Sequence record: KC801932
Length of the DNA: 64,000 nt
Source of the DNA: Escherichia phage Lw1
Direction: 5' to 3' (one strand)
Under the pieces are notes generated by a model. The model did no database searches, was not told the DNA's origin, and worked only from the letters and a program-made list of their open reading frames with translations. Shown piece after piece: positions 3,160 to 58,364 of the stretch. The translations under genes were made by a program, and so were the position numbers. The first letter of the stretch is position 1. Every line of letters starts with the position of its first letter.

Positions 3160-3393
3160 TCACTTGTTGAAAATAATGTTTTCGCATGAATACTTTGTCG
3201 GTTTCTTGTCGATACCGTATTCAAGCGGTGTACACATACGATCCATATAATCGTAAATTTCTTGTTTGCGTTTTTCGTCCTTTTTCATTTCAAGGATACC
3301 AAAAACGATAGCAGTCACAAAACACATAGCGATAGTTGAAAGAATAACGATAGCTACGTATTTTGATGTGTTTGGTGCGCTGCATGGTCTCAT
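3160..3393 (-). CDS. small membrane protein (rIIA.1 position)
   Basis: 77 aa with one hydrophobic helix; ATG overlaps upstream stop as ATGA. Confidence 0.5.
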   Translation of the reverse strand: MRPCSAPNTSKYVAIVILSTIAMCFVTAIVFGILEMKKDEKRKQEIYDYMDRMCTPLEYGIDKKPTKYSCENIIFNK

Positions 3394-3656
3394 TGTAACA
3401 CCTTCGCAAATTCCTGTGAAGTCAGTTTACGGGCAACTAAACGCCCTTTTGTTGATGCTTTATGGCCTACCATATACATCGTGGAAATGTTGCGTTTTCC
3501 TGATTGGATTTCATTATACATCTTTTCCGGCATGGTTGATTGATAAACTTCACCGTTTGATGTTTTCAGGAACATAGCATAAACATGGTCATCTTTCTTT
3601 TCGATGATTTCTTTTTCACGAACACGAACCTTAGACGATGTTGGTTTAGCACCCAA
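3390..3656 (-). CDS. hypothetical protein; in-frame continuation of the SprT-like ORF after a TGA
   Basis: 88 codons in the same frame as 3675..3932, separated by TGA plus 6 codons; track start is TTG. Confidence 0.35.
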   Translation of the reverse strand: MGAKPTSSKVRVREKEIIEKKDDHVYAMFLKTSNGEVYQSTMPEKMYNEIQSGKRNISTMYMVGHKASTKGRLVARKLTSQEFAKVLQ

Positions 3657-3674
3657 TTCAATAGCCTTTCTTTG

Positions 3675-3932
3675 TCATACAGGTCCGTGTCCAGCACCAT
3701 AACCAACAAGGGCATGTGCGATTTCGTGCATAAGAGTATCCAAAATGCAATCGTAGGTATCTTCTTCAACATGTTTCCGGCGTAACTGGATCTCTCTTTT
3801 GGAGTAACTGCAACAACCCAGAGTAGTTTTCAAACGTCCGTTAATTTTGAATGACCAATCAGACAAACCATGTTTAGCCATGATGCTTTTGGCCCAAAGA
3901 ATAATTTCCATGTCGCTACGAGTTTTGAACAT
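3675..3932 (-). CDS. SprT-like zinc metallopeptidase domain protein (N-terminal part)
   Basis: DTLMHEIAHALVGYGAGHG contains HExxH plus a downstream His; ends at TGA with the frame open beyond. Confidence 0.55.
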   Translation of the reverse strand: MFKTRSDMEIILWAKSIMAKHGLSDWSFKINGRLKTTLGCCSYSKREIQLRRKHVEEDTYDCILDTLMHEIAHALVGYGAGHGPV

Positions 3933-3959
3933 TTTACATCCTCCTGTGTTTACGGGAGT

Positions 3960-3993
3960 AATATAACAAAAAAGCCCCTGCTATGCAAGGGCT
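3960..3993 (-). promoter_or_regulatory. terminator hairpin with embedded promoter (-35 TTGCAT, 17 bp, -10 TATATT)
   Basis: minus-sense AAGCCCTTGCATAGCAGGGGCTTTTTTGTTATATT between gene 52 stop and the SprT-like ORF. Confidence 0.45.
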
Positions 3994-4002
3994 TGATGTA
4001 AA

Positions 4003-8070: not shown

Positions 8071-8718
8071 TTAACTACAGGTATCGTACCACTTCTGTAG
8101 TTTCTTCGCAACAAGTTTATTCACTACTTGCGCGATTTCGTGCGTTCCGTGGGTTGCGTTCAGTTCCAGGTAGATGACATCCAGAGCGCACAGGATCACA
8201 TCAACGCTTTCCTCTACGATGTTACCGCCTCGCTGGGGCTGAATGATACATTCAGACACTTCCCCAACTTCTGCCGCCATGTGATGCACTACGTCGCTTT
8301 TGTGGCGTTTCTTAACCCGGTGCGCAACCTTAAAGAAGTCATCCAGCACAACAGAAGTTGATTCACGCGGGGCGACCTCGCCTCCTGCTGTTGCTTCTTC
8401 CAGAATTTTTCTGAACAGTTCTGGAACAACAATATCGTTTCTTGGCGCTTCTGCTTCTTCTGCTTCTTCGCGTGTTGCGATGTATACCGGATTAAACAGG
8501 GTTTTCAGCGTGTCAAACGTAACCGGACAGGGGATGCCCTCAAGATAAACTGAGTTCAGCATTACAATGCTGATTTTACGCGGCGCGTTGAAGTCCATCG
8601 GATTCTTGCGCAATGCTTCATAGATACGACGAACCGGATCGGTCGGTTTGCACGTTTGCACAACCGCTAAGAAAATCGATTTCGGGGCGTACATGTCGCC
8701 TACTTTATACTTGCTCAT
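8071..8718 (-). CDS. hypothetical protein
   Basis: 215 aa from internal ATG (MSKYKVGD); TAATG junction with upstream gene; acidic-helical C-terminal half. Confidence 0.55.
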   Translation of the reverse strand: MSKYKVGDMYAPKSIFLAVVQTCKPTDPVRRIYEALRKNPMDFNAPRKISIVMLNSVYLEGIPCPVTFDTLKTLFNPVYIATREEAEEAEAPRNDIVVPELFRKILEEATAGGEVAPRESTSVVLDDFFKVAHRVKKRHKSDVVHHMAAEVGEVSECIIQPQRGGNIVEESVDVILCALDVIYLELNATHGTHEIAQVVNKLVAKKLQKWYDTCS

Positions 8719-8989
8719 TAACAATACCTTTATAGTAACCAAAAATAAAACAGTTCACGGTCGGACGTTCGCCAGGGAAATGAACACACTGCATGATGCG
8801 TTCAGCCATTAAAACATCGTCAAGATACACGCACGTTGTTTCTTCGTGATAATGGCTGTCATATGATGTACGCTTAACCATGCCAGGCAAACCAGCAATG
8901 TGCATGAATTTGGCGTTGCTGCACGGCTTTCCTGGCTTATCGTCGTAACATAACACTACATTCGTTTTGCTGTTCTTTGGTCTGCTCAT
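8705..8989 (-). CDS. hypothetical protein
   Basis: 94 aa; ATGA overlap with upstream gene. Confidence 0.5.
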   Translation of the reverse strand: MSRPKNSKTNVVLCYDDKPGKPCSNAKFMHIAGLPGMVKRTSYDSHYHEETTCVYLDDVLMAERIMQCVHFPGERPTVNCFIFGYYKGIVNEQV

Positions 8990-9576
8990 TTGTTCACAAC
9001 CTCATTATATGTTTTCAAATTCCATTCATGCACTTCCGGCACTTTGGAGTAATGATCCAGAAAAATTAACTGGACTTGCATAACACTAGCACGGCTCATA
9101 TTGAAAAGGAAGCGCTGAGGCGATGAAATACACAGATAATCTTCTGTGATCCCTCTGCTCGCGGTAAATTCCTTTGTTTCTCCACCGTCGAATTTTGCAT
9201 AAACGCTAGTGGAGAAGTACGGGGCGAAAAGATTACGCTTTTCGTCGTCAGTAATCGCGCTAAAACATGCGCTGACGAGTTTTCCAGTCCCTTCCCTTGT
9301 GACGGTGAAGGTTGTTCCCTTCGTGCGTCCTAAGACGTTCACAACGCGTTCTGTGACATCACCGAAAGCGTTCGTATAATTAACAGTTTCGACAAATCCG
9401 TGATCGCGCCTTTCCTGCAACATCTTTTCATGTTGGGCTATTGAATCTTGTTCAGCGGCTTGTTCTGCTGCTTGATAAACTGCTTTATTCGGATCTCTTG
9501 ATTGCCATGCGAAGAAAAACACTCCAGCGGCTATCAGTCCAAAAATTGCAAATCGTGCGGTTCCTGATAGTTTCAT
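8986..9576 (-). CDS. membrane-anchored or secreted protein
   Basis: 196 aa from internal ATG (MKLSGTARFAIFGLIAAGVFFFA = signal/anchor); track N-terminal extension overlaps the next gene in another frame. Confidence 0.5.
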   Translation of the reverse strand: MKLSGTARFAIFGLIAAGVFFFAWQSRDPNKAVYQAAEQAAEQDSIAQHEKMLQERRDHGFVETVNYTNAFGDVTERVVNVLGRTKGTTFTVTREGTGKLVSACFSAITDDEKRNLFAPYFSTSVYAKFDGGETKEFTASRGITEDYLCISSPQRFLFNMSRASVMQVQLIFLDHYSKVPEVHEWNLKTYNEVVNK

Positions 9577-9610
9577 TTTCTTTTCCAGAAAGGGGCCGAA
9601 GCCCCTTAGT

Positions 9611-9940
9611 TTAGCGTAAGTATTTGACATACCCAGATGAATCGATGCTGTTTTCTGGGTTGTTGAAGATGTTACCACGAATACCCTTAGCAGGTGCTTT
9701 CCAGCCAGCGGCTTTGTAGATATTCCCGTCATTATCCAGGAATCCGGCAACTGAACGCTGGTTGAACATTCCACCAGTTTCTTTGTTGCGAGTATCCTGC
9801 ACGATGCGATGATACTTACGACCTTTCTCCAGAGTAAAAACAGTTTCAAACGGAGAATCTTGGAAACGTGCGTTACGAGCAACGAACATCGCGTTCAGGT
9901 AAGGTGCTGCGGCGTTAGCGAGAGTTTCAAAAGTATTCAT
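9611..9940 (-). CDS. hypothetical protein
   Basis: 109 aa; AAGGAG before ATG; shares upstream element CTTTGATATAGTTACCCCATCGAAAC with the 10226 gene. Confidence 0.5.
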   Translation of the reverse strand: MNTFETLANAAAPYLNAMFVARNARFQDSPFETVFTLEKGRKYHRIVQDTRNKETGGMFNQRSVAGFLDNDGNIYKAAGWKAPAKGIRGNIFNNPENSIDSSGYVKYLR

Positions 9941-10007
9941 GGTAAATCTCCTTAGTTCGTTTCGATGGGGTAACTATATCAAAGTCGGTATTGCGATACA
10001 AGCAATT

Positions 10008-10226
10008 TTATTGATTTTCGAGCAAATAATTCAAATGGGCTTTCAGGGCCGGAAGTTCTGCAATGTGGTTTTTCTTAACTTTATCATACTCTTTGCGTTC
10101 CCACGGTTCCAGGTTACTCGCCAGCGCTTCATCACAATAAGCGATCCCGCGTTCTGCGTCCTGAACCATTTGAGTCCACTGTTTTACTGCTTGCTGATGA
10201 AGAGAACCGTTAACCATCATAATCAT
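10008..10226 (-). CDS. hypothetical protein
   Basis: 72 aa; GGGAGG before ATG. Confidence 0.45.
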   Translation of the reverse strand: MIMMVNGSLHQQAVKQWTQMVQDAERGIAYCDEALASNLEPWERKEYDKVKKNHIAELPALKAHLNYLLENQ

Positions 10227-10451
10227 TTCCTCCCTTGTTTCGATGGGGTAACTATATCAAAGCTACCCCGTGAAGTCTTTAGCAAAAAGTGCTATGAGTG
10301 AAGCCAATTACCGATCGCAACAATAAAACTAGTGATGAATGGGGCATTACAGAAAAACAGTACCCCGTAATCACATTCCTTTATCTTAAAGTTGTTGTAT
10401 ACAAGATAAAGAAAATTAGCAAAGGCCCATAGTGAGAACACAGCGAAAAAT

Positions 10452-10670
10452 TCAACCATGATTCTCTACCAGTTTTCCCTGATACCACTTAGGAAACGTA
10501 ACGCGTTCAATCAGGGTTCTTGCCAGGTTATGACTATCACCGAAAAGGAGAACACCAAACAAAGGATCTCTCTTGATGTCGTTTTTCCCTACGGTTCTCA
10601 TATTGCCTTGATAAATCACGGTGTCGCCCACCGTGATATCTTTGATACTGACTTTTGTTACATTATACAT
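10452..10670 (-). CDS. hypothetical protein
   Basis: 72 aa. Confidence 0.45.
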   Translation of the reverse strand: MYNVTKVSIKDITVGDTVIYQGNMRTVGKNDIKRDPLFGVLLFGDSHNLARTLIERVTFPKWYQGKLVENHG

Positions 10671-10819
10671 ACAATCACCTCAGCAAGTTTCGCGGGTTTC
10701 GCTTCCGGTCTGATTTTGAGCGCATCATCTAAATTCTTTTCAACCATAACAACTGCGTTTTCTTCGTTGAACCCGTTCTTAACCAGGGCTTTAACTACTT
10801 TGGCTTTTAAGTTTTCCAT
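10658..10819 (-). CDS. hypothetical small protein
   Basis: 53 aa from ATG (MENLKAKVVK); track N-terminus is translated leader sequence. Confidence 0.4.
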   Translation of the reverse strand: MENLKAKVVKALVKNGFNEENAVVMVEKNLDDALKIRPEAKPAKLAEVIVCIM

Positions 10820-10856
10820 GATGCGTTCCTTTTGTCTGTTTCGTTTCGATGTGTGT

Positions 10857-10900
10857 AATATACAAAAAAGCCCCCTGCATTGCAAGAGGCTTCTTTAGCA
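10857..10900 (-). promoter_or_regulatory. terminator hairpin with embedded promoter (-35 TTGCAA, 17 bp, -10 TATATT) plus conserved leader
   Basis: minus-sense hairpin followed by T-run after the 10911..11207 gene; leader 10825..10862 identical to 56214..56251. Confidence 0.5.
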
Positions 10901-10910
10901 AAAAGTGCTA

Positions 10911-11207
10911 TTATCTCAATAGTCGTTTACGAATGCCGCCATCACGGGTTTGGTCGTAAATCGCTTTGGCTTCTACTATTGTCTTTTTCAGTGTATGGCT
11001 TTCCCCGTATCCGGTAAAATAGAACTCAACGAACCCTTCGTAAAGGTTTACATGGGTCGTCACACCTTCACCACGGAAGTGTTTCACAAACTGGCGCGTA
11101 TTATACTTAAACCAATCATGGGCTTCCCCGTGTCTGTATAAGGAGTGGATCACAAATGCACCACCAACACTAATCAGAATAAGGCCAATTAATATAATAG
11201 TATTCAT
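10911..11207 (-). CDS. membrane protein
   Basis: 98 aa with N-terminal TM helix (MNTIILIGLILISVGGAFVI). Confidence 0.5.
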   Translation of the reverse strand: MNTIILIGLILISVGGAFVIHSLYRHGEAHDWFKYNTRQFVKHFRGEGVTTHVNLYEGFVEFYFTGYGESHTLKKTIVEAKAIYDQTRDGGIRKRLLR

Positions 11208-11413
11208 TATTTTCCCCTGTTTACAGACTGACGATGCAGCGCACGGTTGATGCGCGGTGCTTTATACGGTTTTACTTTGTATGGAGTCGGTTCATCGTAT
11301 GGAATTCGACTACACAGATCAACACAAGGTGTACGAACCCAACGAATAGAATCAATCAAGCAACTTACCAGAGTGCGGCTAATCATAGTACCGCCTAATA
11401 CCGCTATACGCAT
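11207..11413 (-). CDS. hypothetical protein
   Basis: 68 aa from internal ATG (MRIAVLGG). Confidence 0.4.
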   Translation of the reverse strand: MRIAVLGGTMISRTLVSCLIDSIRWVRTPCVDLCSRIPYDEPTPYKVKPYKAPRINRALHRQSVNRGK

Positions 11414-11421
11414 AAAACCCC

Positions 11422-11565
11422 CTATCGAGTAGCAAGAATGCGAAGCCATTCGCCCAACCAAACGATCGCCTCGTAGGACAACCATAATCCGATCGATACA
11501 ACTGAAATCATACCAATAATCGCAAATGCGAATACAACCTTAAATCCTTCTTTCAAATCAAACAT
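11422..11565 (-). CDS. small membrane protein
   Basis: 47-aa ORF absent from track (MFDLKEGFKVVFAFAIIGMISVVSIGLWL...); AAGAGGA before ATG. Confidence 0.4.
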   Translation of the reverse strand: MFDLKEGFKVVFAFAIIGMISVVSIGLWLSYEAIVWLGEWLRILATR

Positions 11566-11592
11566 AAATTGTCCTCTTTTGTGTCAGTCCCT

Positions 11593-11626
11593 AAAATAAC
11601 AAAACCCTTGCACGAATGCAAGGGTT
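11593..11626 (-). promoter_or_regulatory. terminator hairpin with embedded promoter (-35 TTGCAT, 17 bp, -10 TATTTT)
   Basis: minus-sense AACCCTTGCA-TTCG-TGCAAGGGTT after dexA, upstream of the 47-aa membrane ORF. Confidence 0.45.
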
Positions 11627-11630
11627 TTTA

Positions 11631-12302
11631 TTATCTTTTTCTCGGTAAACTCAGTTCGTCGGTTTCTTCTTCGGTCGGCGGTTCTTCCAACCCCATTGCA
11701 TAACGCATGGCATAGATCAGCATCAGCGCATCTTTTGCACAATCGTGAATTGAGTTGTGCATCACAAAACCATTTAGAATGCCTTTACGCAGAGGACAGG
11801 TTGAAGCCCCACGGGTCAACAGTCGGTTTTCAATGGCTGTACGCACATCACGACTATTCCAGAACACGGTCGGCATGTCGTCAAAGATGTCAATCTTTCC
11901 TATCATCTTACGTACCACATCAACCAGGATACCTCGATCGAATTCAGGGCCACGAACATAATCGAGGGATTGCCAACGGCTTACACCGTCTGCTTTCAAG
12001 TCCTCGAAAAACTGTTTATGTCCTTCGTACAGGTCGATATCATCAGGCGAAGGTTTCAGAATAGCACGGGCTTCTTCGCTTTGCTGTTTCCACCAATCAA
12101 TCGTTGATTTGTCAGCAATGCGATCCGGTTGCTTTTTCAAATCGAACTTATATTTTCTCCCCCGCGAAACCAGTTCCGCGAATGTTGGCGGGTTGTGGGG
12201 GTCGTCGATAAACGGAACGTAAGACAGTTCAACGAGTTTACCGTTTGGTGACGGGCCTACAGTTTCATAGTCCCATACGTAATCAACTGGAAGATGTGAC
12301 AT
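11631..12302 (-). CDS. dexA: exonuclease A (DEDDh 3'-5' exonuclease)
   Basis: 223 aa from ATG (MSHLPVDY); DYETVG and H-x4-D (HNSIHDCAKDA) motifs; near dda as in T4. Confidence 0.7.
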   Translation of the reverse strand: MSHLPVDYVWDYETVGPSPNGKLVELSYVPFIDDPHNPPTFAELVSRGRKYKFDLKKQPDRIADKSTIDWWKQQSEEARAILKPSPDDIDLYEGHKQFFEDLKADGVSRWQSLDYVRGPEFDRGILVDVVRKMIGKIDIFDDMPTVFWNSRDVRTAIENRLLTRGASTCPLRKGILNGFVMHNSIHDCAKDALMLIYAMRYAMGLEEPPTEEETDELSLPRKR

Positions 12303-25394: not shown

Positions 25395-25431
25395 AATTTA
25401 GTCCTCACAATTGGTGTACAACCAATATAAC

Positions 25432-25465
25432 AAAGCCCTTGCATTTCTGCAAGGGCTTTTTGATT
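25432..25465 (-). promoter_or_regulatory. terminator hairpin with embedded promoter (-35 TTGCAG, 17 bp, -10 TATATT)
   Basis: minus-sense AAGCCCTTGCA-GAAA-TGCAAGGGCTT then TGTTATATT between regA and the ORF preceding gene 43. Confidence 0.45.
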
Positions 25466-25835: not shown

Positions 25836-26408
25836 TCACCATTTCTTTATTAATTGTTCAACCTTTTTCTGGTCGGTTTTATTTTTCACAACATCAGCCA
25901 ACACAGATATAGCAACTTTCATATTTTTCCGCTTCCACTCGTCCAGTTTTTCAAGCTGTTTGAGTTCTTCGTAATATTCCATTGCGATACGTGTATTTAC
26001 GCCATACCGTTTTTGGAGAACATGAAGGATAACTTTCATTTCGTTATCTTCGGTGAGTTTAGCCCACGCCCCGAACCGCTTACCTTTGCGCACCGTATGC
26101 AGGTAATAATCAAAGTGCGCCTGGTCAGGTAAACCGGAACCGATCATATTCATTGTGTATGCAGGGATCAGCGTTTCGATATGCTGGCTCATTGCATTGT
26201 CAATGAAATACTTGTCGTATGAATCAAGGCCAGAAATACGCAATGGTTTCTTTCCTGTATTCAATTCTTCGAGAACCATAAACAAGGTGTTTTCCTTGTC
26301 TTTGGTGTACTCTTTCACAAGCCCTTCGATCTTATCCCAGTCTTTAGAACGCCAGGCCGCTTCATGTTCGTTCAGTTCTTCTTCATCGAGAAAAGCAGCC
26401 AATGACAT
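25836..26408 (-). CDS. 62: clamp loader small subunit
   Basis: 190 aa (T4 gp62 187) between gene 44 and regA. Confidence 0.75.
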   Translation of the reverse strand: MSLAAFLDEEELNEHEAAWRSKDWDKIEGLVKEYTKDKENTLFMVLEELNTGKKPLRISGLDSYDKYFIDNAMSQHIETLIPAYTMNMIGSGLPDQAHFDYYLHTVRKGKRFGAWAKLTEDNEMKVILHVLQKRYGVNTRIAMEYYEELKQLEKLDEWKRKNMKVAISVLADVVKNKTDQKKVEQLIKKW

Positions 26409-30658: not shown

Positions 30659-31594
30659 TCAAAAGTCACTTAATTTTTCAAACATACGGACAAGTTTGTT
30701 TTCCATGAAGTATTTCTCCATTTTAGCCTTGTTGCCCGATTTCGGATTATTGTACGCCTTTTCGATTTCATCTGCAACATCTTTTGGAATAAAATCGAAA
30801 TCACGTAGTTCTTCGTTTTCCCTGTACCTTGCGGCCCACTCAGGGGTCATATGGACAGTAGGGTCGTCCGCATCCAGCCACAATTCCAGTTCATTAGCGC
30901 GGATTTGCGGGGCGCGTTCACCTTCAACTTTCGTAACAATATAGTCGTTTCTCATTTTAATACAAGCGATACTATCTTTTTTATCGCCCTTAATGATCTT
31001 CATACGTAAATCATTACGAGGTGTACCGTATTTCGGCGTAACCCATTTCTTTTGGGTAGGCGACCATTGTCGAACACCCTGATATTTTTGCAGCGCGGTA
31101 AAGTCACTATCCGCTGATACAATCAGGACTCGCTTACCTTGCGCTACTGCGTTTTTCGTAACGACACCGATAATATCATCGGCTTCTGCGAAGTCAACCC
31201 TCAAACCTTTGTACGGAAGATTCTCGCGGATCTCGTCGTAGGTCGGATGAAGGAAACCGTTCAGAAAATCCCAGTCCCATTCGGATTCCGCGTGTTCCAT
31301 TTGTCGTTTCTTTTTGTAGTACCAGGCTTTACTTCTTCGCCAATACTTGTTATCATCAAAGGCTAAGACAATTTCTGGGTACTCACCTTTGAATTTAACC
31401 ACGTTGTACCGGATTGTGTCAAGAACAATGTGACGAATAATTTGTTGATTGATGTCTTTCTGGTCTTTCGGCTTGAAGTTGTTCATCAACGTTGCTACCG
31501 AAAGGTTTGAAATATCTATACACATCACATCAACAGGATCATCTTCATTGCTCATTAAACTGTTCAGATTGAACATTGAAGCAAATGAACTCAT
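30659..31594 (-). CDS. rnh: RNase H (5'-3' flap endonuclease)
   Basis: 311 aa from ATG (MSSFASMF) with GAGGT SD; CIDISN, YWRR, WDWDF, SADSDFTALQKY, VRQWSP, KGDKKDSIA, TKVEGERAP parallel T4 RNase H. Confidence 0.85.
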   Translation of the reverse strand: MSSFASMFNLNSLMSNEDDPVDVMCIDISNLSVATLMNNFKPKDQKDINQQIIRHIVLDTIRYNVVKFKGEYPEIVLAFDDNKYWRRSKAWYYKKKRQMEHAESEWDWDFLNGFLHPTYDEIRENLPYKGLRVDFAEADDIIGVVTKNAVAQGKRVLIVSADSDFTALQKYQGVRQWSPTQKKWVTPKYGTPRNDLRMKIIKGDKKDSIACIKMRNDYIVTKVEGERAPQIRANELELWLDADDPTVHMTPEWAARYRENEELRDFDFIPKDVADEIEKAYNNPKSGNKAKMEKYFMENKLVRMFEKLSDF

Positions 31595-31671
31595 TTCAAT
31601 ACCTCGTTGTTGTTGAATGAAGCTGATTATAGTGATCACTTTTTCAAAGTCAATAGATCATTTCAAGATTC

Positions 31672-31812
31672 TGAGCGAAGCGAAGGACACGAACGAAGTG
31701 AGTGTCTAACTACATAACTACACTTTTAAATTTTTATATTTTATATATAGAGAAAAATGTAGTTTTTGGTATGTTTTTTAACCAATCTTACCTATCCGTT
31801 TCGCTTCGCTCA
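31672..31812. repeat. 13-bp perfect inverted repeat (TGAGCGAAGCGAA / TTCGCTTCGCTCA) flanking an AT-rich 115-bp core
   Basis: read directly in the rnh/55 divergent intergenic region; GCGAAG-type sub-repeats on both arms. Confidence 0.7.
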
Positions 31813-31916
31813 CGGAAACGCTTCGCGTTGATTTTATTAAATAATATAGATTGGAAGTAGGTTTGAAACCTGTAATTCCATCAGCTATAATGAATGTATT
31901 CAATTTGGAGAATATA

Positions 31917-32432
31917 ATGACTACTAAGATTTATGCAGATAATGATAAGCTGTATCCGGTTATGTGTAAGTGGAAACAGCAGATCCGTGAAACTGGAGAT
32001 CGCAAAATGCCTGATGACCTGGGTATTGCAATCATGAACATCGCTCACGGTTTGGCCCGTCGATACAACTTCAACCGTTATTCCGAAGATTGGAAAATGG
32101 ATATGATCGATGATGGTATTTCCGCTACGATTTCCGGTTTACACAACTTTGATGAAACCAAATATACAAACGTTTATGGGTATATCAATAAGGCTTGTTG
32201 GCAAGCGTTTGTAACCCGCATTCTCTACGAAAAGAAAGAGAACGCGAAGAAATACAAATACTTCCTGGAACACGTTTACGATAGTGACGATGCTGATATG
32301 ACTTCGATAGCTGATGAAACTTTCATTCAGGATATTCATGATAAATTAAATCAGTATGAAGAGTCCGCGAAAAAACCGAAGGATAAAATCGAGGTTGTGG
32401 ACGAATCGCCAACTTTGGAAATGTTTCTATGA
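31917..32432 (+). CDS. 55: late-promoter sigma factor
   Basis: 171 aa from ATG after GGAG; DDLGIAIMNIAHGLARRYNFNRYS parallels T4 gp55. Confidence 0.85.
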   Translation: MTTKIYADNDKLYPVMCKWKQQIRETGDRKMPDDLGIAIMNIAHGLARRYNFNRYSEDWKMDMIDDGISATISGLHNFDETKYTNVYGYINKACWQAFVTRILYEKKENAKKYKYFLEHVYDSDDADMTSIADETFIQDIHDKLNQYEESAKKPKDKIEVVDESPTLEMFL

Positions 32433-49529: not shown

Positions 49530-49607
49530 GGCCCCTTAGCTCAATTGGTTAGAGCGAACCCCTCATAAGGGTGTGGTTTCCGGTTCAAGTCACGGAAGGG
49601 GCCACCA
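49530..49607 (+). tRNA. tRNA with CAU anticodon (Met or lysidine-dependent Ile)
   Basis: hand-folded: 7-bp acceptor stem GGCCCCT/AGGGGCC, D-arm GCTC..GAGC, anticodon loop CUCAUAA, T-loop TTCAAGT, encoded CCA; one A-G mismatch in anticodon stem and one G-A in T-stem. Confidence 0.6.
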
Positions 49608-49760
49608 AATCAGGGTGCTGGCGCAATGCCGTTAAATGGTTCCGAATATGCAACCTTATCCATTGGATAGGCTCTGTTGGTATCGGGTAATAGGTTCCCC
49701 GGAATGCGGGGTGAAGTAAAGAAACTTCCAGCCCATCAAATTAACTTAAAGAGAAATGAA

Positions 49761-53147: not shown

Positions 53148-53353
53148 TTGATTATTCAGTCATTCAAATGTATACCGGGAACTGGCGACTGTTTTATTAT
53201 TTTCGTTGGTTTCCGTGGTATAAATGGACCCCGACCTTCGGTGACGGTTGCGGAAATGATACTGGTATTCCGGTTGAATACAACCAAAAGAATGATGTTA
53301 TTGATTGGCATCGTAAGAACGAACAACTAAAAGAAAGGTTGAAATTATTATGA
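53144..53353 (+). CDS. hypothetical protein
   Basis: 69 aa, Trp/Tyr-rich. Confidence 0.45.
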   Translation: MIDYSVIQMYTGNWRLFYYFRWFPWYKWTPTFGDGCGNDTGIPVEYNQKNDVIDWHRKNEQLKERLKLL

Positions 53354-53556
53354 TCTATTTCGCAATCGTGGTTGGTGTCTTGATATACCTTGCTATTGGT
53401 GTATACTGTGCAGCACGGTTTACCTGGTGTTTTGGTGTAAGTCATAACGGCTACCATACATTCTGGGGTACTGTGTTACAATATACCATTTTCCCGTTGA
53501 TTGTGCTGTTTTGGCCTTTCTTCGCGTTGTGGTTCATTTTTGCATTATTTGTTTGA
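53350..53556 (+). CDS. small membrane protein
   Basis: 68 aa, two TM helices. Confidence 0.5.
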   Translation: MIYFAIVVGVLIYLAIGVYCAARFTWCFGVSHNGYHTFWGTVLQYTIFPLIVLFWPFFALWFIFALFV

Positions 53557-54050: not shown

Positions 54051-54664
54051 AACCAGTTATTCTTACCGATATTGACGGGATCGCCGTAAAATGGCAAAGC
54101 GGCCTCCCGTTCTTTTTGTCTAAACACAATATGCCTACTGATATTGCTCTGGACATGGTCACCGATGAAAGATTTCGTGATATGACCGAAATATTCGGGT
54201 GTGATCACCAACTGGCTAAAATCCTGATGGAAGAATATAACAACAGTTCGTTTATTCGCTATCTAAGCGCGTATGACGATGCGTTAGTTGTGATCAACCG
54301 TCTGAAAGCCAAATATGATTTCGTCGCTGTCACGGCGCTGGGAACCACTCCTACGGCAAGTCTGAACCGTATTGCAAACCTGAACACATTGTTCCCGTCT
54401 GCATTCAAAGAAGTGATGGTCGTCGGACATGGTGAAACAAAAACACATCGTTACCTGGAAGCAAAAGCCAAATACGGATCGCGGTTGGTTTGCTTTGTTG
54501 ATGACCTTGCGGTAAACTTAAACGAGTGTCATAACGTCATCAGTCAGTTGCCGTTATTTCACATGTTGCGTGGTGAACGTGAACAACCAAATGTTCCGCA
54601 CAGTATCGTAAAATCATGGTTTGAAATTGAAGAGAAATTAGATGATCTTATCAATATTGAATGA
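54047..54664 (+). CDS. HAD-superfamily hydrolase-like protein (possible 5'(3')-deoxyribonucleotidase)
   Basis: 205 aa; N-terminal ILTDIDGI resembles HAD motif I; C-terminal VDD. Confidence 0.5.
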   Translation: MKPVILTDIDGIAVKWQSGLPFFLSKHNMPTDIALDMVTDERFRDMTEIFGCDHQLAKILMEEYNNSSFIRYLSAYDDALVVINRLKAKYDFVAVTALGTTPTASLNRIANLNTLFPSAFKEVMVVGHGETKTHRYLEAKAKYGSRLVCFVDDLAVNLNECHNVISQLPLFHMLRGEREQPNVPHSIVKSWFEIEEKLDDLINIE

Positions 54665-56165
54665 ACTTGCATCGACTCTGAAAACCTCAGAGAAGGAAGC
54701 AATTTTAAAACGTAATGCAAACAACCTATTGTTGAAAGAGATTTTCCGAATTACGTACACAAAACAGATTATGTTCTATGTGCGTAAGTTTCCCCAGGTG
54801 GACGGCAAACCAGGAACAACCCCGCTATCAAATGCAATCGCGGACCTGATGTCCGATTTAGCATCGCGGAAGTATACAGGTAATGCAGCCCGCGATCGCC
54901 TGATGGATATTGTGTCATCAGTAAACGAGAACGATCGCGAAGTGTTGCGCCGTATCATTAACCGCGATCTTGAATGTGGTGCGGGTACAACTCTGCCAAA
55001 CCGCGTATGGAAGAAACTTATTCCAGAACAGCCTCAATGCCTCGCTACGCCGTTTAGTGAAAAAGCCTTAAAACGTATTCGCTTCCCTGCTTACTCTCAG
55101 CTTAAAGCCGATGGTGCGCGTTGTATGTCGGATCTGTTAGAAGACCAGATTCGCAAAGCAACCCGCGCGGGAAATGAGTATACAGGTTTGGTTGATCTGG
55201 ATAAGGATTTGAAAAAGATCCGCGAATATCTGGGTTATGATGTTGTGCTGGATGGAGAATTGATTTATGTCCCTGGTGGAAAATCCGTTGAAGTTCCTGT
55301 GTCTCCTGTTACGTTTAGCCTTGCTGGGTTTATGGGCGATGACGATGATTCTGTTACTGACTTTGTGGCTGATGTTAGGCGGGAAGCCACCGAGGGAGAA
55401 AAACAGGAAGAGGCGAAACGCGAAGAAGGAAACGGAATCGTAAACAAATCCCTGAAAGGCACTATCAGCGACGAAGAACAACAGAACATCGTTTATGTTG
55501 TCTGGGACATCATACCGTATGAAGTTTATTATGGTGATGCTCCGAGTGTTCAGCCTTACAAAGATCGCTTGTCTATCCTTGATGGTGTTATCGCTGGCAC
55601 TGGTGTAACATCGGTTCAGTTGATTCCTTCTATCCTGGTGCAAACCATCGCGGAAGCAAAACAGGATTACAACAATTACCGCAATGACGGTAAAGAGGGT
55701 TCAATCCTGAAAAACGTTGATTTCGTCTGGAAGGATTCACGCGTTGCGGATCAGGTTAAGTTGAAGAACAAAACCCCGATCGAACTACGAATCATCGACG
55801 TATACGCGCACACCAAAGAACCTCATAAGGTCGGCGGGTTTGTTGTTGAGGACTTATCAGGAGAAGCCAGGACGAACACAGGTTCCGGTTTAACTGATAC
55901 AGACTACCGTTACGATGAAGACGGTGTTACCCGCGTGTATATCCCGTTAGACGAACGTGGAGAACTGGATCGCGAGTATATCATGACGAACAAAGATGAC
56001 TATATTGGCGCTATCGTCGAAATGGAAGTTGACGGACTCCAGAAGTCTAAAACGCGTAAGAAGGGCGAACCTGAATACAGTTTCTTCTTGCCAATCATCA
56101 AGAAGATTCGACGCGATAAGACGGAACCTGATGATATTCATGTGGTTTTTGCCGATCTGTTTTAA
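54642..56165 (+). CDS. 30: ATP-dependent DNA ligase
   Basis: 507 aa; N-terminus MILSILNELAS parallels T4 gp30; adenylation motif LKADGARC. Confidence 0.9.
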   Translation: MILSILNELASTLKTSEKEAILKRNANNLLLKEIFRITYTKQIMFYVRKFPQVDGKPGTTPLSNAIADLMSDLASRKYTGNAARDRLMDIVSSVNENDREVLRRIINRDLECGAGTTLPNRVWKKLIPEQPQCLATPFSEKALKRIRFPAYSQLKADGARCMSDLLEDQIRKATRAGNEYTGLVDLDKDLKKIREYLGYDVVLDGELIYVPGGKSVEVPVSPVTFSLAGFMGDDDDSVTDFVADVRREATEGEKQEEAKREEGNGIVNKSLKGTISDEEQQNIVYVVWDIIPYEVYYGDAPSVQPYKDRLSILDGVIAGTGVTSVQLIPSILVQTIAEAKQDYNNYRNDGKEGSILKNVDFVWKDSRVADQVKLKNKTPIELRIIDVYAHTKEPHKVGGFVVEDLSGEARTNTGSGLTDTDYRYDEDGVTRVYIPLDERGELDREYIMTNKDDYIGAIVEMEVDGLQKSKTRKKGEPEYSFFLPIIKKIRRDKTEPDDIHVVFADLF

Positions 56166-56184
56166 ATAGCACTTTTTGTTTAAA

Positions 56185-56219
56185 AAGCCCTTGCATACGT
56201 GCGAGGGCTTTGTTATATT
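56185..56219 (+). promoter_or_regulatory. terminator hairpin with embedded promoter (-35 TTGCAT in stem, 17-bp spacer, -10 TATATT)
   Basis: AAAGCCCTTGCA-TACG-TGCGAGGGCTTT hairpin after ligase; -10 begins the 38-nt leader that recurs identically at 10825..10862. Confidence 0.5.
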
Positions 56220-56256
56220 ACACACATCGAAACGAAACAGACAAAAGGAACATCCC

Positions 56257-56529
56257 ATGCAAATCACTAAAGAACTCGAAGGCAAAGTAATCAACCTGAC
56301 ATACCGTGCGCGTTTTGAAAAACTGGCTAATGGTGGCGAATCTTTGGGTGAAGCGGTAGCGTTATTCGAAAGACTTCGGGTTAAACGTGTTGTTGATGGT
56401 TGGGTTATTGCTCTCCCTGTTGCAGATGAAGATAAAGCAGTATATGACCCAGTTGCCGATTCATGGGATATTGAAATCTGTTTAGTTAACGTTGAAGTAG
56501 AACTTTGCTTCGAAGAAGAAAATAATTGA
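56257..56529 (+). CDS. hypothetical protein
   Basis: 90 aa from ATG (MQITKELEG) after AAGGAA; track N-terminus is translated leader. Confidence 0.5.
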   Translation: MQITKELEGKVINLTYRARFEKLANGGESLGEAVALFERLRVKRVVDGWVIALPVADEDKAVYDPVADSWDIEICLVNVEVELCFEEENN

Positions 56530-56596
56530 AATAGTTCTTGTATTGTGTGTAGGGTAGTGTGGTATCTTACACACATCGGAACAAAGGAGAGACACC

Positions 56597-57264: not shown

Positions 57265-58364
57265 GCCTCGCTTGTTTTGCTGTTATCGTTAGTCGCAGCA
57301 GCCACCTGTACACATTCCAATGTTTGCAGGTGGAAATCTTTTGATACGTCACGGATACATTCAACGATCAAATACTTACCCGCGTATTCATCCCCCAACA
57401 CTTCAATCATCCCCCCTACTTTAACATCCATTCGACCCTGATTAATATCAAACTTAATCCGTTTTTCATAACCGGACAGTAACTGACATTTAACCGCCTG
57501 GAATGGCTGGCCTTGTTTGTCGGGGTTCTGGAAGTTGGTATTGTATACCGCGTTCCGGTTCATTGTGATCCACGCGTTTTCAACGTCTGTACTTGCGAGT
57601 ATATCGCTGTATAACTTCTTGTCAGTCATCGAGAAACTAAAGAAACTTGCATCCCCTAACAGGGTAGTGTTATCCTTATACGTAATGTATTCAGCTTTCG
57701 TGAATACCAAAGAATCACCTAAAAACGGATTGCTTACGTTATACTTGTAAGCCTTTAACGGGGTTTGTGCTAGGATCTCCGTATTGCTTCGCATAAAGAT
57801 ACCGGAACCATCTTCCCACAAATAACAGAAGTCTGACGAATCAACGCTCTGACCGTTATCCCTTATGTAATCAAACACGGTTTCATACGTCCCGCTTAAA
57901 CATGCCGGAGGTATACGCACGTTTGAAGCATCAATGGTCGGGGTAATCAGCTTCATATCGTTGTATAGTGCCGTCATACACTCTGTAATCGTCTGTACGG
58001 CGTTATTACTGAATGAACGGGAGAACTTACGACGAAATACCGTATGCACCGGAGAAAGGTTTAGGCGCAATATAGAACGGTTCATATCATCGGTTTCGAC
58101 GTTCGAATACAGAACACCATAGTAATGCTGTTCCAACGTCTGATTATACTTGAAAGATACCTGAATAATTGGTTTCTCTGTCAACTGATAGATTAACTGG
58201 TTATCGTAGATCTGCATCAATGTTTCAGAAGTACCGTTGATAATAGTTTTCTCACTCATTGAGACAAGGGCAGGTAGCAATTCAAGATAGACGTTATCCG
58301 CAAACTTTTCATATGTTGGATATAATTTAACCGATACAATACGGTTTATAACTTTATTGGACAT
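57261..58364 (-). CDS. 27: baseplate hub subunit (gp27-like)
   Basis: 367 aa; N-terminal SVKLYPTYEKFADNVYLELLPAL and C-terminal region resemble T4 gp27 as recalled; divergent to gp28-gp54. Confidence 0.55.
   Translation of the reverse strand: MSNKVINRIVSVKLYPTYEKFADNVYLELLPALVSMSEKTIINGTSETLMQIYDNQLIYQLTEKPIIQVSFKYNQTLEQHYYGVLYSNVETDDMNRSILRLNLSPVHTVFRRKFSRSFSNNAVQTITECMTALYNDMKLITPTIDASNVRIPPACLSGTYETVFDYIRDNGQSVDSSDFCYLWEDGSGIFMRSNTEILAQTPLKAYKYNVSNPFLGDSLVFTKAEYITYKDNTTLLGDASFFSFSMTDKKLYSDILASTDVENAWITMNRNAVYNTNFQNPDKQGQPFQAVKCQLLSGYEKRIKFDINQGRMDVKVGGMIEVLGDEYAGKYLIVECIRDVSKDFHLQTLECVQVAAATNDNSKTSEA

What the first reader, a model, noticed from the sequence alone, without database searches (positions are those of the whole stretch)
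56214..56251. Identical 38-nt promoter/leader block duplicated at two distant loci in opposite orientation
TATATTACACACATCGAAACGAAACAGACAAAAGGAAC occurs at 56214..56251 (plus) and, as exact reverse complement, at 10825..10862 (minus). Each copy sits directly upstream of an unrelated small gene (56257..56529 and 10658..10819). Both copies begin with a -10-like TATATT preceded at 17 bp by TTGCA(T/A), and both have ATAGCACTTTTTG further upstream, a motif that also recurs near 10277..10294. Perfect identity of a non-coding block between otherwise unrelated genes suggests recent duplication or recombination of an early-promoter cassette, or strong selection on a leader RNA. A weaker relative lies at about 56545..56590.
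Basis: seen in the sequence. Interest (0 to 1): 0.55.

Follow-up and report, generated by a model that had tools for sequence, protein, structure and literature searches.

The report
Repeated early promoter–terminator cassette (PeSL)
The identical 38-base block is the -10 box, start site and untranslated leader of a ~90-base promoter-plus-terminator cassette that RB16/RB43-type T4-like phages put in front of small early genes; phages swap genes at it, so it is a known kind of element, but it has an unreported twin in T1-like phages.

Summary
The 38-mer occurs exactly twice (56214-56251 +, 10825-10862 -), where chance predicts none. The window is an RB16-like Pseudotevenvirus. The block is the 3' part of a ~90-nt composite cassette: upstream stop codon plus ATAGCACTTTTTG repeat, a GC hairpin carrying the -35 (TTGCAT/TTGCAA), 17 bp, TATATT, then an unstructured ~31-nt leader with SD AAGGA. 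This matches the PeSL (promoter-early stem-loop) cassettes of T4-type phages. Nolan et al. (2006) already predicted overlapping early promoters and terminators at the matching RB43 sites. The opposite orientation follows the divergent early transcription units.

The duplication is old: both copies sit at the same loci in RB16, RB43, Miller, Margaery and KP15/KP27, with locus-specific substitutions. Recombination at the cassette is supported. RB43/Miller carry denV inserted exactly inside cassette B, between 15-nt -10/start-site repeats. Window 10225-10851 is 99.2% identical to Klebsiella phage KP27, with edges inside cassettes B and D.

Unexpectedly, ATAGCACTTTTTG is the 21-22-nt intergenic repeat of T1-like Drexlerviridae, whose function is unknown. 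The -10/leader also recurs there, and the leader recurs in Vequintavirinae.

Verdict: real, a new member of a known kind, moderately interesting.

The parts
56163..56256 (+). Cassette A, whole: from the ligase (gp30) stop codon TAA (56163-56165) to the base before the ATG of the 90-aa ORFan
   Evidence: Sequence; alignment A1 with cassette B and the RB16 orthologues. The RB43 orthologue was predicted as early promoter Pe:57694 and as terminator 57704-57725.
56166..56186 (+). Upstream repeat ATAGCACTTTTTGTTTAAAAA, about -60 to -40. It has the T-tract/A-tract layout of an UP element and equals the T1-like 21-22-nt intergenic repeat
   Evidence: exact 13-mer, 0 expected. Consensus given in PMC4319613 and PMC11447400.
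56184..56211 (+). GC-rich hairpin (12 bp, -19.3 kcal/mol, z -5.5): intrinsic-terminator-like, with the -35 TTGCAT (56191-56196) in its 5' arm
56214..56251 (+). The reported 38-nt block: -10 TATATT (56214-56219), discriminator ACACAC, inferred start site A at about 56226, and the first 26 nt of the 5'UTR, including SD AAGGA (56245-56249)
   Evidence: The start site is inferred from the 7-nt spacing and from the 3' end of Nolan's RB43 promoter model.
56257..56529 (+). Cargo gene A: a 90-aa ORFan with no Pfam family
   Evidence: The allele is 70% identical to RB16 but 89-91% to RB43/Miller/Margaery.
10820..10913 (-). Cassette B, whole: stop TAA (10913-10911), repeat ATAGCACTTTTTG (10911-10899), hairpin 10894-10866 holding -35 TTGCAA (10885-10880), -10 TATATT (10862-10857), inferred start about 10850, SD AAGGA (10831-10827)
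10825..10862 (-). Second copy of the 38-nt block
10849..10863 (-). 15-nt -10/start-site segment (GTATATTACACACAT). It is the overlap between the two alignment blocks that flank the 534-bp denV insertion of RB43 and Miller, so it is the inferred crossover site
   Evidence: blastn blocks 8513-10863 and 10849-11634; sequences.
10658..10819 (-). Cargo gene B: a 53-aa ORFan
10225..10851 (-). Tract 99.2% identical to Klebsiella phage KP27 (Slopekvirus): leader B, three small ORFs and cassette D. The flanks are 55-79% identical
10227..10297 (-). Cassette D: repeat ATAGCACTTTTTG (10295-10283), hairpin 10269-10245 spanning the -10 TATAGT (10256-10251), leader TACCCCATCGAAAC, SD GGGAGG. This is the canonical T1-type layout
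   Evidence: Alignment A2 with T1 copies at 1450 and 2269.
9941..10007 (-). Cassette E: TTGTAT-N17-TATAGT with the leader TACCCCATCGAAACGAA. It shares a 26-nt exact repeat with cassette D (9959-9984 = 10237-10262)
   Evidence: The RB16/RB43 orthologues carry the ACACAC type here instead.
56530..56596 (+). Cassette C (the 'weaker relative'): hairpin 56544-56575 spanning an extended -10 TGGTATCTT, leader ACACACATCGGAAC, SD AGGAG. RB16, RB43 and Miller have two more genes directly after it
3933..4002 (-). Further cassette of the hairpin-embedded -35 class (TTGCAT-N17-TATATT), with a different leader
   Evidence: RB43 Pe:4005 and terminator 3977-3995.
11566..11630 (-). Further cassette of the same class (hairpin 11601-11628, TTGCAT-N17-TATTTT). 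RB43's ORF020 indel abuts it
25395..25463 (-). Further cassette of the same class (TTGCAG-N17-TATATT)
   Evidence: RB43 Pe:26374 and terminator 26343-26364.

Best explanation
The block is part of a composite early-gene regulatory cassette of the PeSL type (promoter-early stem-loop).

Each cassette is about 90 nt long and reads, 5' to 3':
1. The stop codon of the upstream gene, fused to the repeat ATAGCACTTTTTG(Y)TAAA. This is an A/T-tract element at about -60 to -40, where an UP element would sit.
2. A stable GC hairpin that can terminate transcripts arriving from upstream. Its 5' arm contains the -35 hexamer TTGCAT or TTGCAA.
3. A 17-bp spacer and the -10 TATATT.
4. A C/A-rich discriminator and a start site near the A of CATCG.
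5. An unstructured, A-rich leader of about 31 nt with SD AAGGA, followed by the ATG.

Host sigma-70 RNA polymerase would start early transcripts here. Each copy points the way its early transcription unit runs: the minus strand left of about 31.7 kb and the plus strand to the right. That explains the inverted orientation.

The two copies are old paralogues, kept nearly invariant across a whole group of phages. Because the same sequence sits in front of many unrelated genes, it also acts as a portable stretch of homology. Homologous recombination at it inserts, deletes or replaces gene modules that arrive already carrying a promoter, terminator and ribosome-binding site.

Shown here: the anatomy, hairpin stability, conservation, copy family and mosaic junctions. 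Inferred: promoter and terminator activity, the start site, the UP-like role of the repeat, and the recombination mechanism.
For: Identity of the genome:
- RB16-like phage, 97.7% identical over 1-25 kb. Genes run on the minus strand up to about 31 kb and on the plus strand after that.

Anatomy:
- -35 / 17 bp / -10 at both copies.
- Hairpins of -19.3 and -17.8 kcal/mol, z -5.5 and -3.5.
- 19 variant hairpins from other loci and genomes all fold with the -35 in the 5' arm. One of them has the G-rich and C-rich arms swapped.

Family within the window:
- Five -10 + ATCGRAAC leader copies.
- Five cassettes with a hairpin-embedded -35.

Prior prediction in RB43 (PMC1524935 supplements):
- Pe:57694 overlaps terminator 57704-57725.
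- Pe:11463 overlaps terminator 11434-11454.
- Likewise the orthologues of the window cassettes at 3.9, 11.6 and 25.4 kb.

The PeSL definition and the experiments behind it are in PMC2839356 and PMC4122927.

Conservation:
- 179 of 216 matching phage records hold a copy covering at least 80% of the block. All but 4 of the 216 have a best match of at least 90% identity.
- The block is 92-100% identical (87% in KP27 at locus B) where the adjacent ORFs are 70-91%.

Shuffling:
- The denV module in RB43/Miller splits cassette B at GTATATTAC(A/G)CACAT.
- Miller gene 0098 is flanked by two leader-bearing cassettes.
- The KP27-like tract 10225-10851 has its edges in cassettes B and D.
- Window cassette B has the RB43-type hairpin (100%) but the RB16-type block and the RB16/KP27-type cargo.
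- Cassette E carries a 26-nt patch of the cassette D type.
Against: - No transcript mapping exists for this phage or its close relatives, so the start site and terminator efficiency are predictions.
- The generic promoter scan finds no more sites than in shuffled sequence. It does not list cassette A, because TTGCAT matches only 3 of 6 positions of TTGACA.
- Hairpin A has a poor U-tract (UUUGUUAU).
- Not every indel against RB16 lies at a cassette. The junctions at 53156-53555 and 54631-54638 do not.
- Junctions may cluster at cassettes partly because intergenic sites are the only tolerated ones.
- Promoter function alone does not explain why 26 transcribed nucleotides are almost invariant.
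Confidence: 0.85

Rival explanations
1. A recent duplication or gene conversion within this genome made the two copies identical (concerted evolution).
For: The copies match 38/38 in the window. Local conversion does seem to happen: cassette E carries a 26-nt exact patch of the cassette D type that is absent from the RB16/RB43/KP27 orthologues.
Against: RB16 has both copies at the same loci, 38/38 and 37/38. RB43, Miller, Margaery and KP15/KP27 have them as well. Their differences follow the locus, not the genome: the B copies of RB43 and Miller share a 1-nt A deletion, and their A copies share TATTGT. The locus-specific tails ATCCC and GCATC are conserved between orthologues.
Confidence: 0.08
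2. The conserved leader is a structured or otherwise specific regulatory RNA, such as a riboregulator, a processing site, or the target of a translational repressor like RegA.
For: The transcribed 26 nt are far better conserved than the neighbouring coding DNA. The phage group encodes RegA. The same leader recurs in unrelated phage families.
Against: There is no predicted structure: MFE -0.9 and -1.0 kcal/mol, z about 0. Rfam gives no match. Other family members keep only ATCGRAAC plus an SD, so no extended RNA motif is shared. Binding by a protein or RNase cannot be excluded.
Confidence: 0.15
3. The ATAGCAC repeat, the leader, or both are operators for a dedicated DNA-binding regulator (stoperator-like or activator-like), not parts of a plain sigma-70 promoter.
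For: The repeat is asymmetric, is always oriented with transcription, and sits at a fixed distance from the start. In IMG/VR the leader begins exactly 50 nt after the repeat start in 46 of 169 unique copies; in the window the offsets are 51, 60 and 61. The T1-type copies have no proper -35 at 17 bp. Authors working on T1-like phages list stoperator and enhancer hypotheses.
Against: Families that share the cassette share none of the cargo proteins tested. A common phage-encoded regulator is therefore unlikely, and a host factor such as the alpha-CTD of RNA polymerase fits better. The 10-nt offset difference equals one helical turn, as expected for an UP-like element. In cassettes A and B the T- and A-tracts fall within 1-2 nt of the UP consensus positions; that placement is inferred from the sequence.
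Confidence: 0.2
4. It is a MotA-dependent middle promoter, as the matching sites are annotated in the KP27 record.
For: The KP27 record labels the orthologous sites 'putative middle promoter; discovered using MEME'.
Against: There is no MotA box (TGCTTtA 11-13 bp upstream of the -10). Instead TTGCAW lies at 17 bp. No motA orthologue or middle-promoter consensus was found for RB43 (PMC1524935). The KP27 label comes from a motif search only.
Confidence: 0.03

Closest known systems
PeSL (promoter-early stem-loop) cassettes of T4-type phages RB49/phi1, T4/PST and KVP40/nt-1 (Arbiol et al. 2010, PMC2839356; Comeau et al. 2014, PMC4122927)
   Same: The order of parts matches: stop codon and AT-rich region, sigma-70-like promoter, stem-loop overlapping a promoter box, SD and ATG. 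Also shared: many copies in front of small ORFans in plastic regions, location at indel and replacement junctions, and crossovers mapped between the -10 and the ATG.
   Different: The sequence is different. Here the upstream part is the specific ATAGCAC repeat rather than generic AT-rich DNA. A 27-nt leader is nearly invariant. The -35 is TTGCAW, embedded in a CCC/GGG hairpin. Mini-circles and promoter/terminator activity have not been tested for this group.
Predicted RB43 early promoters and TransTerm terminators (Nolan et al. 2006, PMC1524935)
   Same: These are the orthologous sites. Pe:57694 with terminator 57704-57725 matches cassette A. Pe:11463 with terminator 11434-11454 matches the 5' half of cassette B. 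Pe:58043, Pe:12201, Pe:10033, Pe:4005 and Pe:26374 match other window cassettes.
   Different: That study listed promoters and terminators separately. In the text and supplements read here, it does not describe the cassette, the conserved leader or the recombination junctions.
21-22-nt intergenic direct repeat of T1-like Drexlerviridae: aaATAGCACnnnTTGnTAAAA in TLS, VWATAGCAYKWWTTGYTAAAAV in Stevie, about 20 copies in T1 (PMC11447400, PMC4319613)
   Same: The sequence is the same. It is intergenic, oriented with transcription, and lies 69-92 nt upstream of start codons. In T1 it is followed by the same GGGGTA..TATAGTTACCCCATCRAAAC promoter and leader as window cassette D (A2).
   Different: It was described only in siphoviruses of the T1 group, and its function is unknown. 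Here it sits in a T4-like myovirus, with three copies in 64 kb. In cassettes A and B it lies one helical turn further upstream, to make room for a hairpin with a canonical -35.
Morons of lambdoid phages
   Same: Both are single genes that carry their own promoter and terminator and are added between resident genes.
   Different: The flanks of morons are not conserved repeats and are not thought to mediate the recombination. Here the regulatory sequence itself provides the shared homology.
Stoperators of mycobacteriophage L5
   Same: Both are short, asymmetric, oriented intergenic repeats present in many copies.
   Different: Stoperators bind the prophage repressor to silence transcription in a temperate phage. 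These phages are virulent, no repressor is known, and the repeat sits upstream of promoters.

Membership tests
PeSL cassette | Sigma-70-like -35 and -10 boxes with about 17-bp spacing, upstream of a gene and in its orientation | tested here: met
   TTGCAT-N17-TATATT at 56191-56219 and TTGCAA-N17-TATATT at 10885-10857. The -35 matches the consensus at only 3 of 6 and 4 of 6 positions.
PeSL cassette | A stable stem-loop overlapping or adjacent to the promoter boxes | tested here: met
   Hairpins 56184-56211 and 10866-10894 contain the -35 (z -5.5 and -3.5). 19 variants all fold this way. Cassettes C and D have hairpins over the -10.
PeSL cassette | An AT-rich upstream region that includes the upstream gene's stop codon, with SD and start codon at the 3' end | tested here: met
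   TAA at 56163-56165 and 10913-10911, fused to ATAGCACTTTTTG. SD AAGGA lies 7 nt before the ATG.
PeSL cassette | Multi-copy, in plastic regions in front of small genes of unknown function | tested here: met
   About 12 cassette-like intergenic regions in the window. Cargo ORFs have no Pfam family above cut-off, except DUF7717. Gene content between gp30 and gp27 ranges from 3 to 6 genes among relatives.
PeSL cassette | Located at insertion, deletion or replacement junctions between related genomes | tested here: met
   denV, Miller 0098, RB16 p089/p090, RB43 ORF020 and the KP27-like tract. Two other junctions are not at cassettes.
PeSL cassette | Demonstrated promoter and terminator activity; formation of mini-circles by recombination between cassettes | not testable with these tools
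   Needs reporter fusions, transcript mapping and inverse PCR on infected cells.
T1-like 21-22-nt intergenic repeat | Match to aaATAGCACnnnTTGnTAAAA | tested here: met
   Cassettes B and D read ATAGCACTTTTTGCTAAAG. Cassette A reads ATAGCACTTTTTGTTTAAAAA, with one extra T.
T1-like 21-22-nt intergenic repeat | Intergenic, oriented with transcription, at a fixed distance (about 76 nt) upstream of a start codon | tested here: met
   All three copies are on the transcribed strand, 69, 91 and 92 nt before the ATG. Modal repeat-to-leader offset is 50 nt in IMG/VR, against 51, 60 and 61 here.
T1-like 21-22-nt intergenic repeat | The host genome is a T1-like siphovirus (Drexlerviridae) | tested here: not met
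   The window is a Pseudotevenvirus, family Straboviridae. It belongs to the repeat family by sequence but lies outside the taxon in which the repeat was described.
MotA-dependent middle promoter | MotA box (a/t)(a/t)(a/t)TGCTTtA 11-13 bp upstream of the -10, and a motA gene in the phage | tested here: not met
   No such box at that spacing. No motA or middle-promoter consensus in RB43 (PMC1524935). motA was not searched for beyond this 64-kb window.
Known structured RNA (Rfam) | Match to a covariance model at the gathering score | tested here: not met
   0 matches in the whole window. That scan also failed to report the tRNA-Met that ARAGORN finds, so its sensitivity here is in doubt.

The most novel reading that the evidence does not exclude
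The whole cassette (ATAGCAC repeat, -10/discriminator and ATCGAAAC leader) may be a promiscuous regulatory module that moves without cargo between unrelated virulent enterobacterial phage families: Straboviridae of the RB16/RB43/KP15 group, T1-like Drexlerviridae, and Vequintavirinae. Its invariant 27-nt leader would serve as a portable recombination site. On this reading, the T4-like copies sit at the canonical UP-element position in front of a standard -35/-10. That would explain the long-unexplained T1-family intergenic repeat as the upstream (UP-like) half of a PeSL-type early promoter cassette.
Probability: 0.35. Interest if true: 0.65.

Novelty: new member of a known kind. Interest (0 to 1): 0.42.

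Why it matters
For this phage, the result says how small early genes of unknown function are expressed. Each has its own strong promoter, is insulated by a terminator, and has a standard unstructured leader.

It also says how such genes are gained and lost, with junctions mapped to within about 15-30 nt. One junction lies inside the reported block and marks a near-identical 627-nt module shared with a Klebsiella phage of another genus.

More broadly, the same upstream repeat and -10/leader occur in T1-like phages. Authors working on those phages list the repeat's function as an open question. The comparison with T4-like cassettes gives a specific, testable hypothesis: the repeat is an UP-like promoter element that is part of a recombinogenic cassette.

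A compact, conserved promoter-leader unit of this kind could also be useful for engineering phages.

Tried and rejected
- Chance: rejected, 0 of 100 shuffles.
- Host origin of the leader: no match in 5,426 complete E. coli genomes.
- Known RNA family: none.
- Structured leader RNA: none predicted. In read-through transcripts of A and B, the repeat's CUUUUUG can pair with the leader's CAAAAGG. Cassette D lacks this pairing, so I treat it as incidental.
- Related cargo proteins: the A and B products are unrelated. The cargo ORFs have no homologues in T1, PaulSarasin, Stevie, CR9 or L004, so only the non-coding cassette is shared.
- Concerted evolution as the cause of the A = B identity: rejected from the orthologue pattern.
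- MotA middle promoter (the KP27 annotation): rejected.
- Literature search for the sequence strings, and for transcript maps of T1-like or RB43-like phages: it found the Stevie and TLS descriptions of the repeat and nothing else.
- The generic promoter scan has no discriminating power in this AT-rich genome.
- My crude gene caller and global-alignment difference profiles across large indels were unreliable. I used them only for orientation.

Full report
**1. Observation**

The 38-mer is present exactly at 56214-56251 (+) and 10825-10862 (-). There is no third match even with three mismatches, and none in 100 dinucleotide shuffles.
- TTGCAT and TTGCAA lie 17 bp upstream of TATATT.
- ATAGCACTTTTTG is exact at 56166-56178, 10899-10911 and 10283-10295, with 0 expected.
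- A weaker relative lies at 56560-56590.
- Start codons are at 56257 and 10819, in front of a 90-aa and a 53-aa product with no similarity.

The homology is longer than reported. [quoted passage not shown]

**2. What the genome is**

The window is an RB16-like Pseudotevenvirus, a T4-related phage. It is 97.7% identical to RB16 over 1-25 kb and starts at the same base as the RB16 record. It is about 83-91% identical to RB16, RB43, Miller and IME-CF2 around 52-60 kb.

Genes run on the minus strand up to about 31 kb and on the plus strand beyond. Each copy of the block therefore points in the local direction of early transcription. This explains the opposite orientation.

**3. Anatomy**

Each copy belongs to a cassette with these parts, 5' to 3':
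- the upstream gene's stop codon, fused to ATAGCACTTTTTG(Y)TAAA;
- a GC hairpin whose 5' arm holds the -35 (56184-56211 at -19.3 kcal/mol, z -5.5; 10866-10894 at -17.8 kcal/mol, z -3.5);
- a 17-bp spacer and TATATT;
- the discriminator ACACAC;
- an inferred start at the A of CATCG (about 56226 and 10850);
- a leader of about 31 nt with SD AAGGA, 7 nt before the ATG.

The leader is unstructured (MFE about -1 kcal/mol, no different from shuffles). No Rfam family matches it.

Nineteen variant hairpins from other loci and genomes all fold with the -35 in the 5' arm, although their loops and stems differ. One of them has the G-rich and C-rich arms swapped.

Within the window, five cassettes share the -10 + ATCGRAAC leader: 9959-9978, 10237-10256 and 10843-10862 on the minus strand, and 56214-56233 and 56563-56582 on the plus strand. 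Five have the hairpin-embedded -35, with -35 hexamers starting at 3988, 10885, 11621 and 25452 on the minus strand and 56191 on the plus strand. A few more pair a terminator with a promoter in other arrangements.

**4. Relation to what is known**

This is the architecture of PeSLs (promoter-early stem-loops). These were described for RB49/phi1 and later for T4/PST and KVP40/nt-1. They combine a stop codon and AT-rich region, a sigma-70-like early promoter, and a stem-loop overlapping a promoter box, followed by the SD and ATG. They lie in plastic regions, and recombination between copies shuffles the flanked genes (PMC2839356, PMC4122927).

For RB43, Nolan et al. (2006) had already predicted early promoters and terminators that overlap at the orthologous sites:
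- Pe:57694 with terminator 57704-57725, matching cassette A;
- Pe:11463 with terminator 11434-11454, matching the 5' half of cassette B;
- Pe:58043, Pe:12201, Pe:10033, Pe:4005 and Pe:26374, matching other window cassettes.

The same paper found no motA gene or middle-promoter consensus in RB43. The 'putative middle promoter' label on these sites in the KP27 record came from a MEME motif search and is not supported.

**5. Age of the duplication**

RB16 carries both copies at the same loci, 38/38 at locus B and 37/38 at locus A. RB43, Miller, Margaery and KP15/KP27 carry them too.

The differences follow the locus, not the genome:
- The B copies of RB43 and Miller share a 1-nt deletion.
- Their A copies share TATTGT.
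- The tails ATCCC (A) and GCATC (B) are conserved between orthologues.

The duplication is therefore old, and the identity is maintained by constraint, not by recent copying.

The block is found in 216 phage records. Of these, 179 hold a copy covering at least 80% of it, and all but four have a best match of at least 90% identity. It is 92-100% identical (87% in KP27 at locus B) where the adjacent ORFs are only 70-91%.

**6. Recombination at the cassette**

(a) In RB43 and Miller, a 534-bp denV module sits inside cassette B. The repeat, hairpin and TATATT lie upstream of denV. A second TATATTACACACAT plus the leader lies upstream of the orthologue of gene B. The two alignment blocks overlap by the 15 nt 10849-10863.

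(b) Window 10225-10851 differs from Klebsiella phage KP27 (genus Slopekvirus) at only 5 of 627 positions, whereas the flanks are 55-79% identical. One edge falls inside the 38-nt block, between the leader and the discriminator. The other falls at the SD/ATG of cassette D.

(c) Within cassette B, the window has the RB43-type hairpin (100%, against 86% to RB16). Its block is RB16-type (100%; 97% to RB43, 87% to KP27), and its cargo gene is RB16/KP27-type (98-99%, against 88% to RB43).

(d) Miller has an extra gene, 0098, flanked by two leader-bearing cassettes.

(e) RB16, RB43 and Miller have two extra genes starting exactly at the ATG after cassette C.

(f) An RB43 LysM gene indel abuts the cassette at 11.6 kb.

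(g) Cassette E in the window carries a 26-nt patch of the cassette D type, absent from its orthologues.

Two other indels against RB16 (53156-53555 and 54631-54638, the latter a homing endonuclease) are not at cassettes. The association is strong but not exclusive, and selection for tolerated sites contributes to it.

**7. Link to other phage families**

ATAGCACTTTTTG(Y)TAAA is the 21-22-nt intergenic direct repeat of T1-like Drexlerviridae:
- 16 copies in Stevie and about 20 in T1 (PMC4319613);
- 18 intergenic copies in TLS, about 76 nt upstream of start codons. Its function is listed there as an open question, with stoperator, enhancer and UP-element hypotheses (PMC11447400).

The T1 copies at 1450 and 2269 align with window cassette D through the -10 and leader (GGGGTA..TATAGTTACCCCATCRAAAC; A2). 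The cassettes of PaulSarasin and Stevie (Drexlerviridae) and of CR9 (Vequintavirinae) align with A and B, including CATCGAAACGAAACA.ACAAAAGGAA (A3). The cargo genes are unrelated, and E. coli genomes have no copy.

In IMG/VR the repeat lies mostly on 42-53-kb contigs, but also on contigs of 148-189 kb. The leader starts exactly 50 nt after the repeat start in 46 of 169 unique copies. Window cassette D has 51, and A and B have 60 and 61, one helical turn more. In A and B this puts the T- and A-tracts within 1-2 nt of the UP-element consensus positions, upstream of a standard -35. That placement is an inference from the sequence.

I found no paper linking the T1-family repeat to T4-like phages. 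The searchable library lacks most subscription journals.

**8. Verdict**

The finding is real. It is a PeSL-type early promoter/terminator/leader cassette, a known kind of element, and its RB43 orthologues were already predicted as promoters and terminators. 'Recent duplication' is wrong. 'Recombination of a promoter cassette' is right and can now be shown at nucleotide resolution.

Two points remain unexplained and mildly novel: why the unstructured leader is almost invariant, and why the cassette is shared with T1-like and rV5-like phages.

Noticed in passing
window 10225-10851: This tract is 99.2% identical (5 differences in 627 nt) to Klebsiella phage KP27, genus Slopekvirus, while the flanking genes are 55-79% identical. 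It looks like a recent exchange between genera of a three-gene module bounded by two cassettes.
   Followed up: yes
window 9959-9984 and 10237-10262: A 26-nt exact direct repeat. Cassette E has the -10/discriminator of cassette D, whereas the RB16, RB43 and KP27 orthologues have other variants. This suggests local conversion between cassettes 278 bp apart.
   Followed up: partly
L028 (phage T1), L025 (PaulSarasin), L027 (Stevie), L024 (CR9), L004: The ATAGCAC repeat and the -10/ATCGAAAC leader recur in Drexlerviridae, and the leader recurs in Vequintavirinae, in front of unrelated genes. In T1-like phages the repeat is a published element of unknown function.
   Followed up: partly
window 3390-3932 (-): The homologue of RB16p004 (180 aa, HExxH motif LMHEIAH) has an in-frame stop codon in the window. 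This splits it into ORFs 3675-3932 and 3390-3521. It may be a pseudogene or a sequencing error.
   Followed up: no
window 54631-54638 and 53156-53555: The window lacks RB16's 'homing endonuclease 4' upstream of the ligase gene. It also has about 400 extra bp (two small ORFs) that RB16 lacks. Neither junction is next to a cassette.
   Followed up: partly
window 31594-31917: The 320-nt divergent intergenic region between rnh and gene 55 folds into a long imperfect hairpin (about -83 kcal/mol) with GAGCGAAGCGAA / TTCGCTTCGCTC arms around a very AT-rich centre. It could hold divergent promoters or an origin-like element.
   Followed up: no
window 49530-49700: ARAGORN finds only tRNA-Met (49530-49607), whereas RB16 annotates tRNA-Met and tRNA-Gly side by side. 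The Rfam gathering scan of the whole window returned no hit at all, not even this tRNA.
   Followed up: no
L029 (RB16 60001-110000): record positions about 72305, 92721, 93249, 94714, 98510: Further leader-bearing cassettes lie in RB16's large plastic region. One is a third near-full copy of the 38-nt block, upstream of frd.1 (93249). Another has a GAA-type variant of the repeat (92759), as in one TLS subclass.
   Followed up: partly
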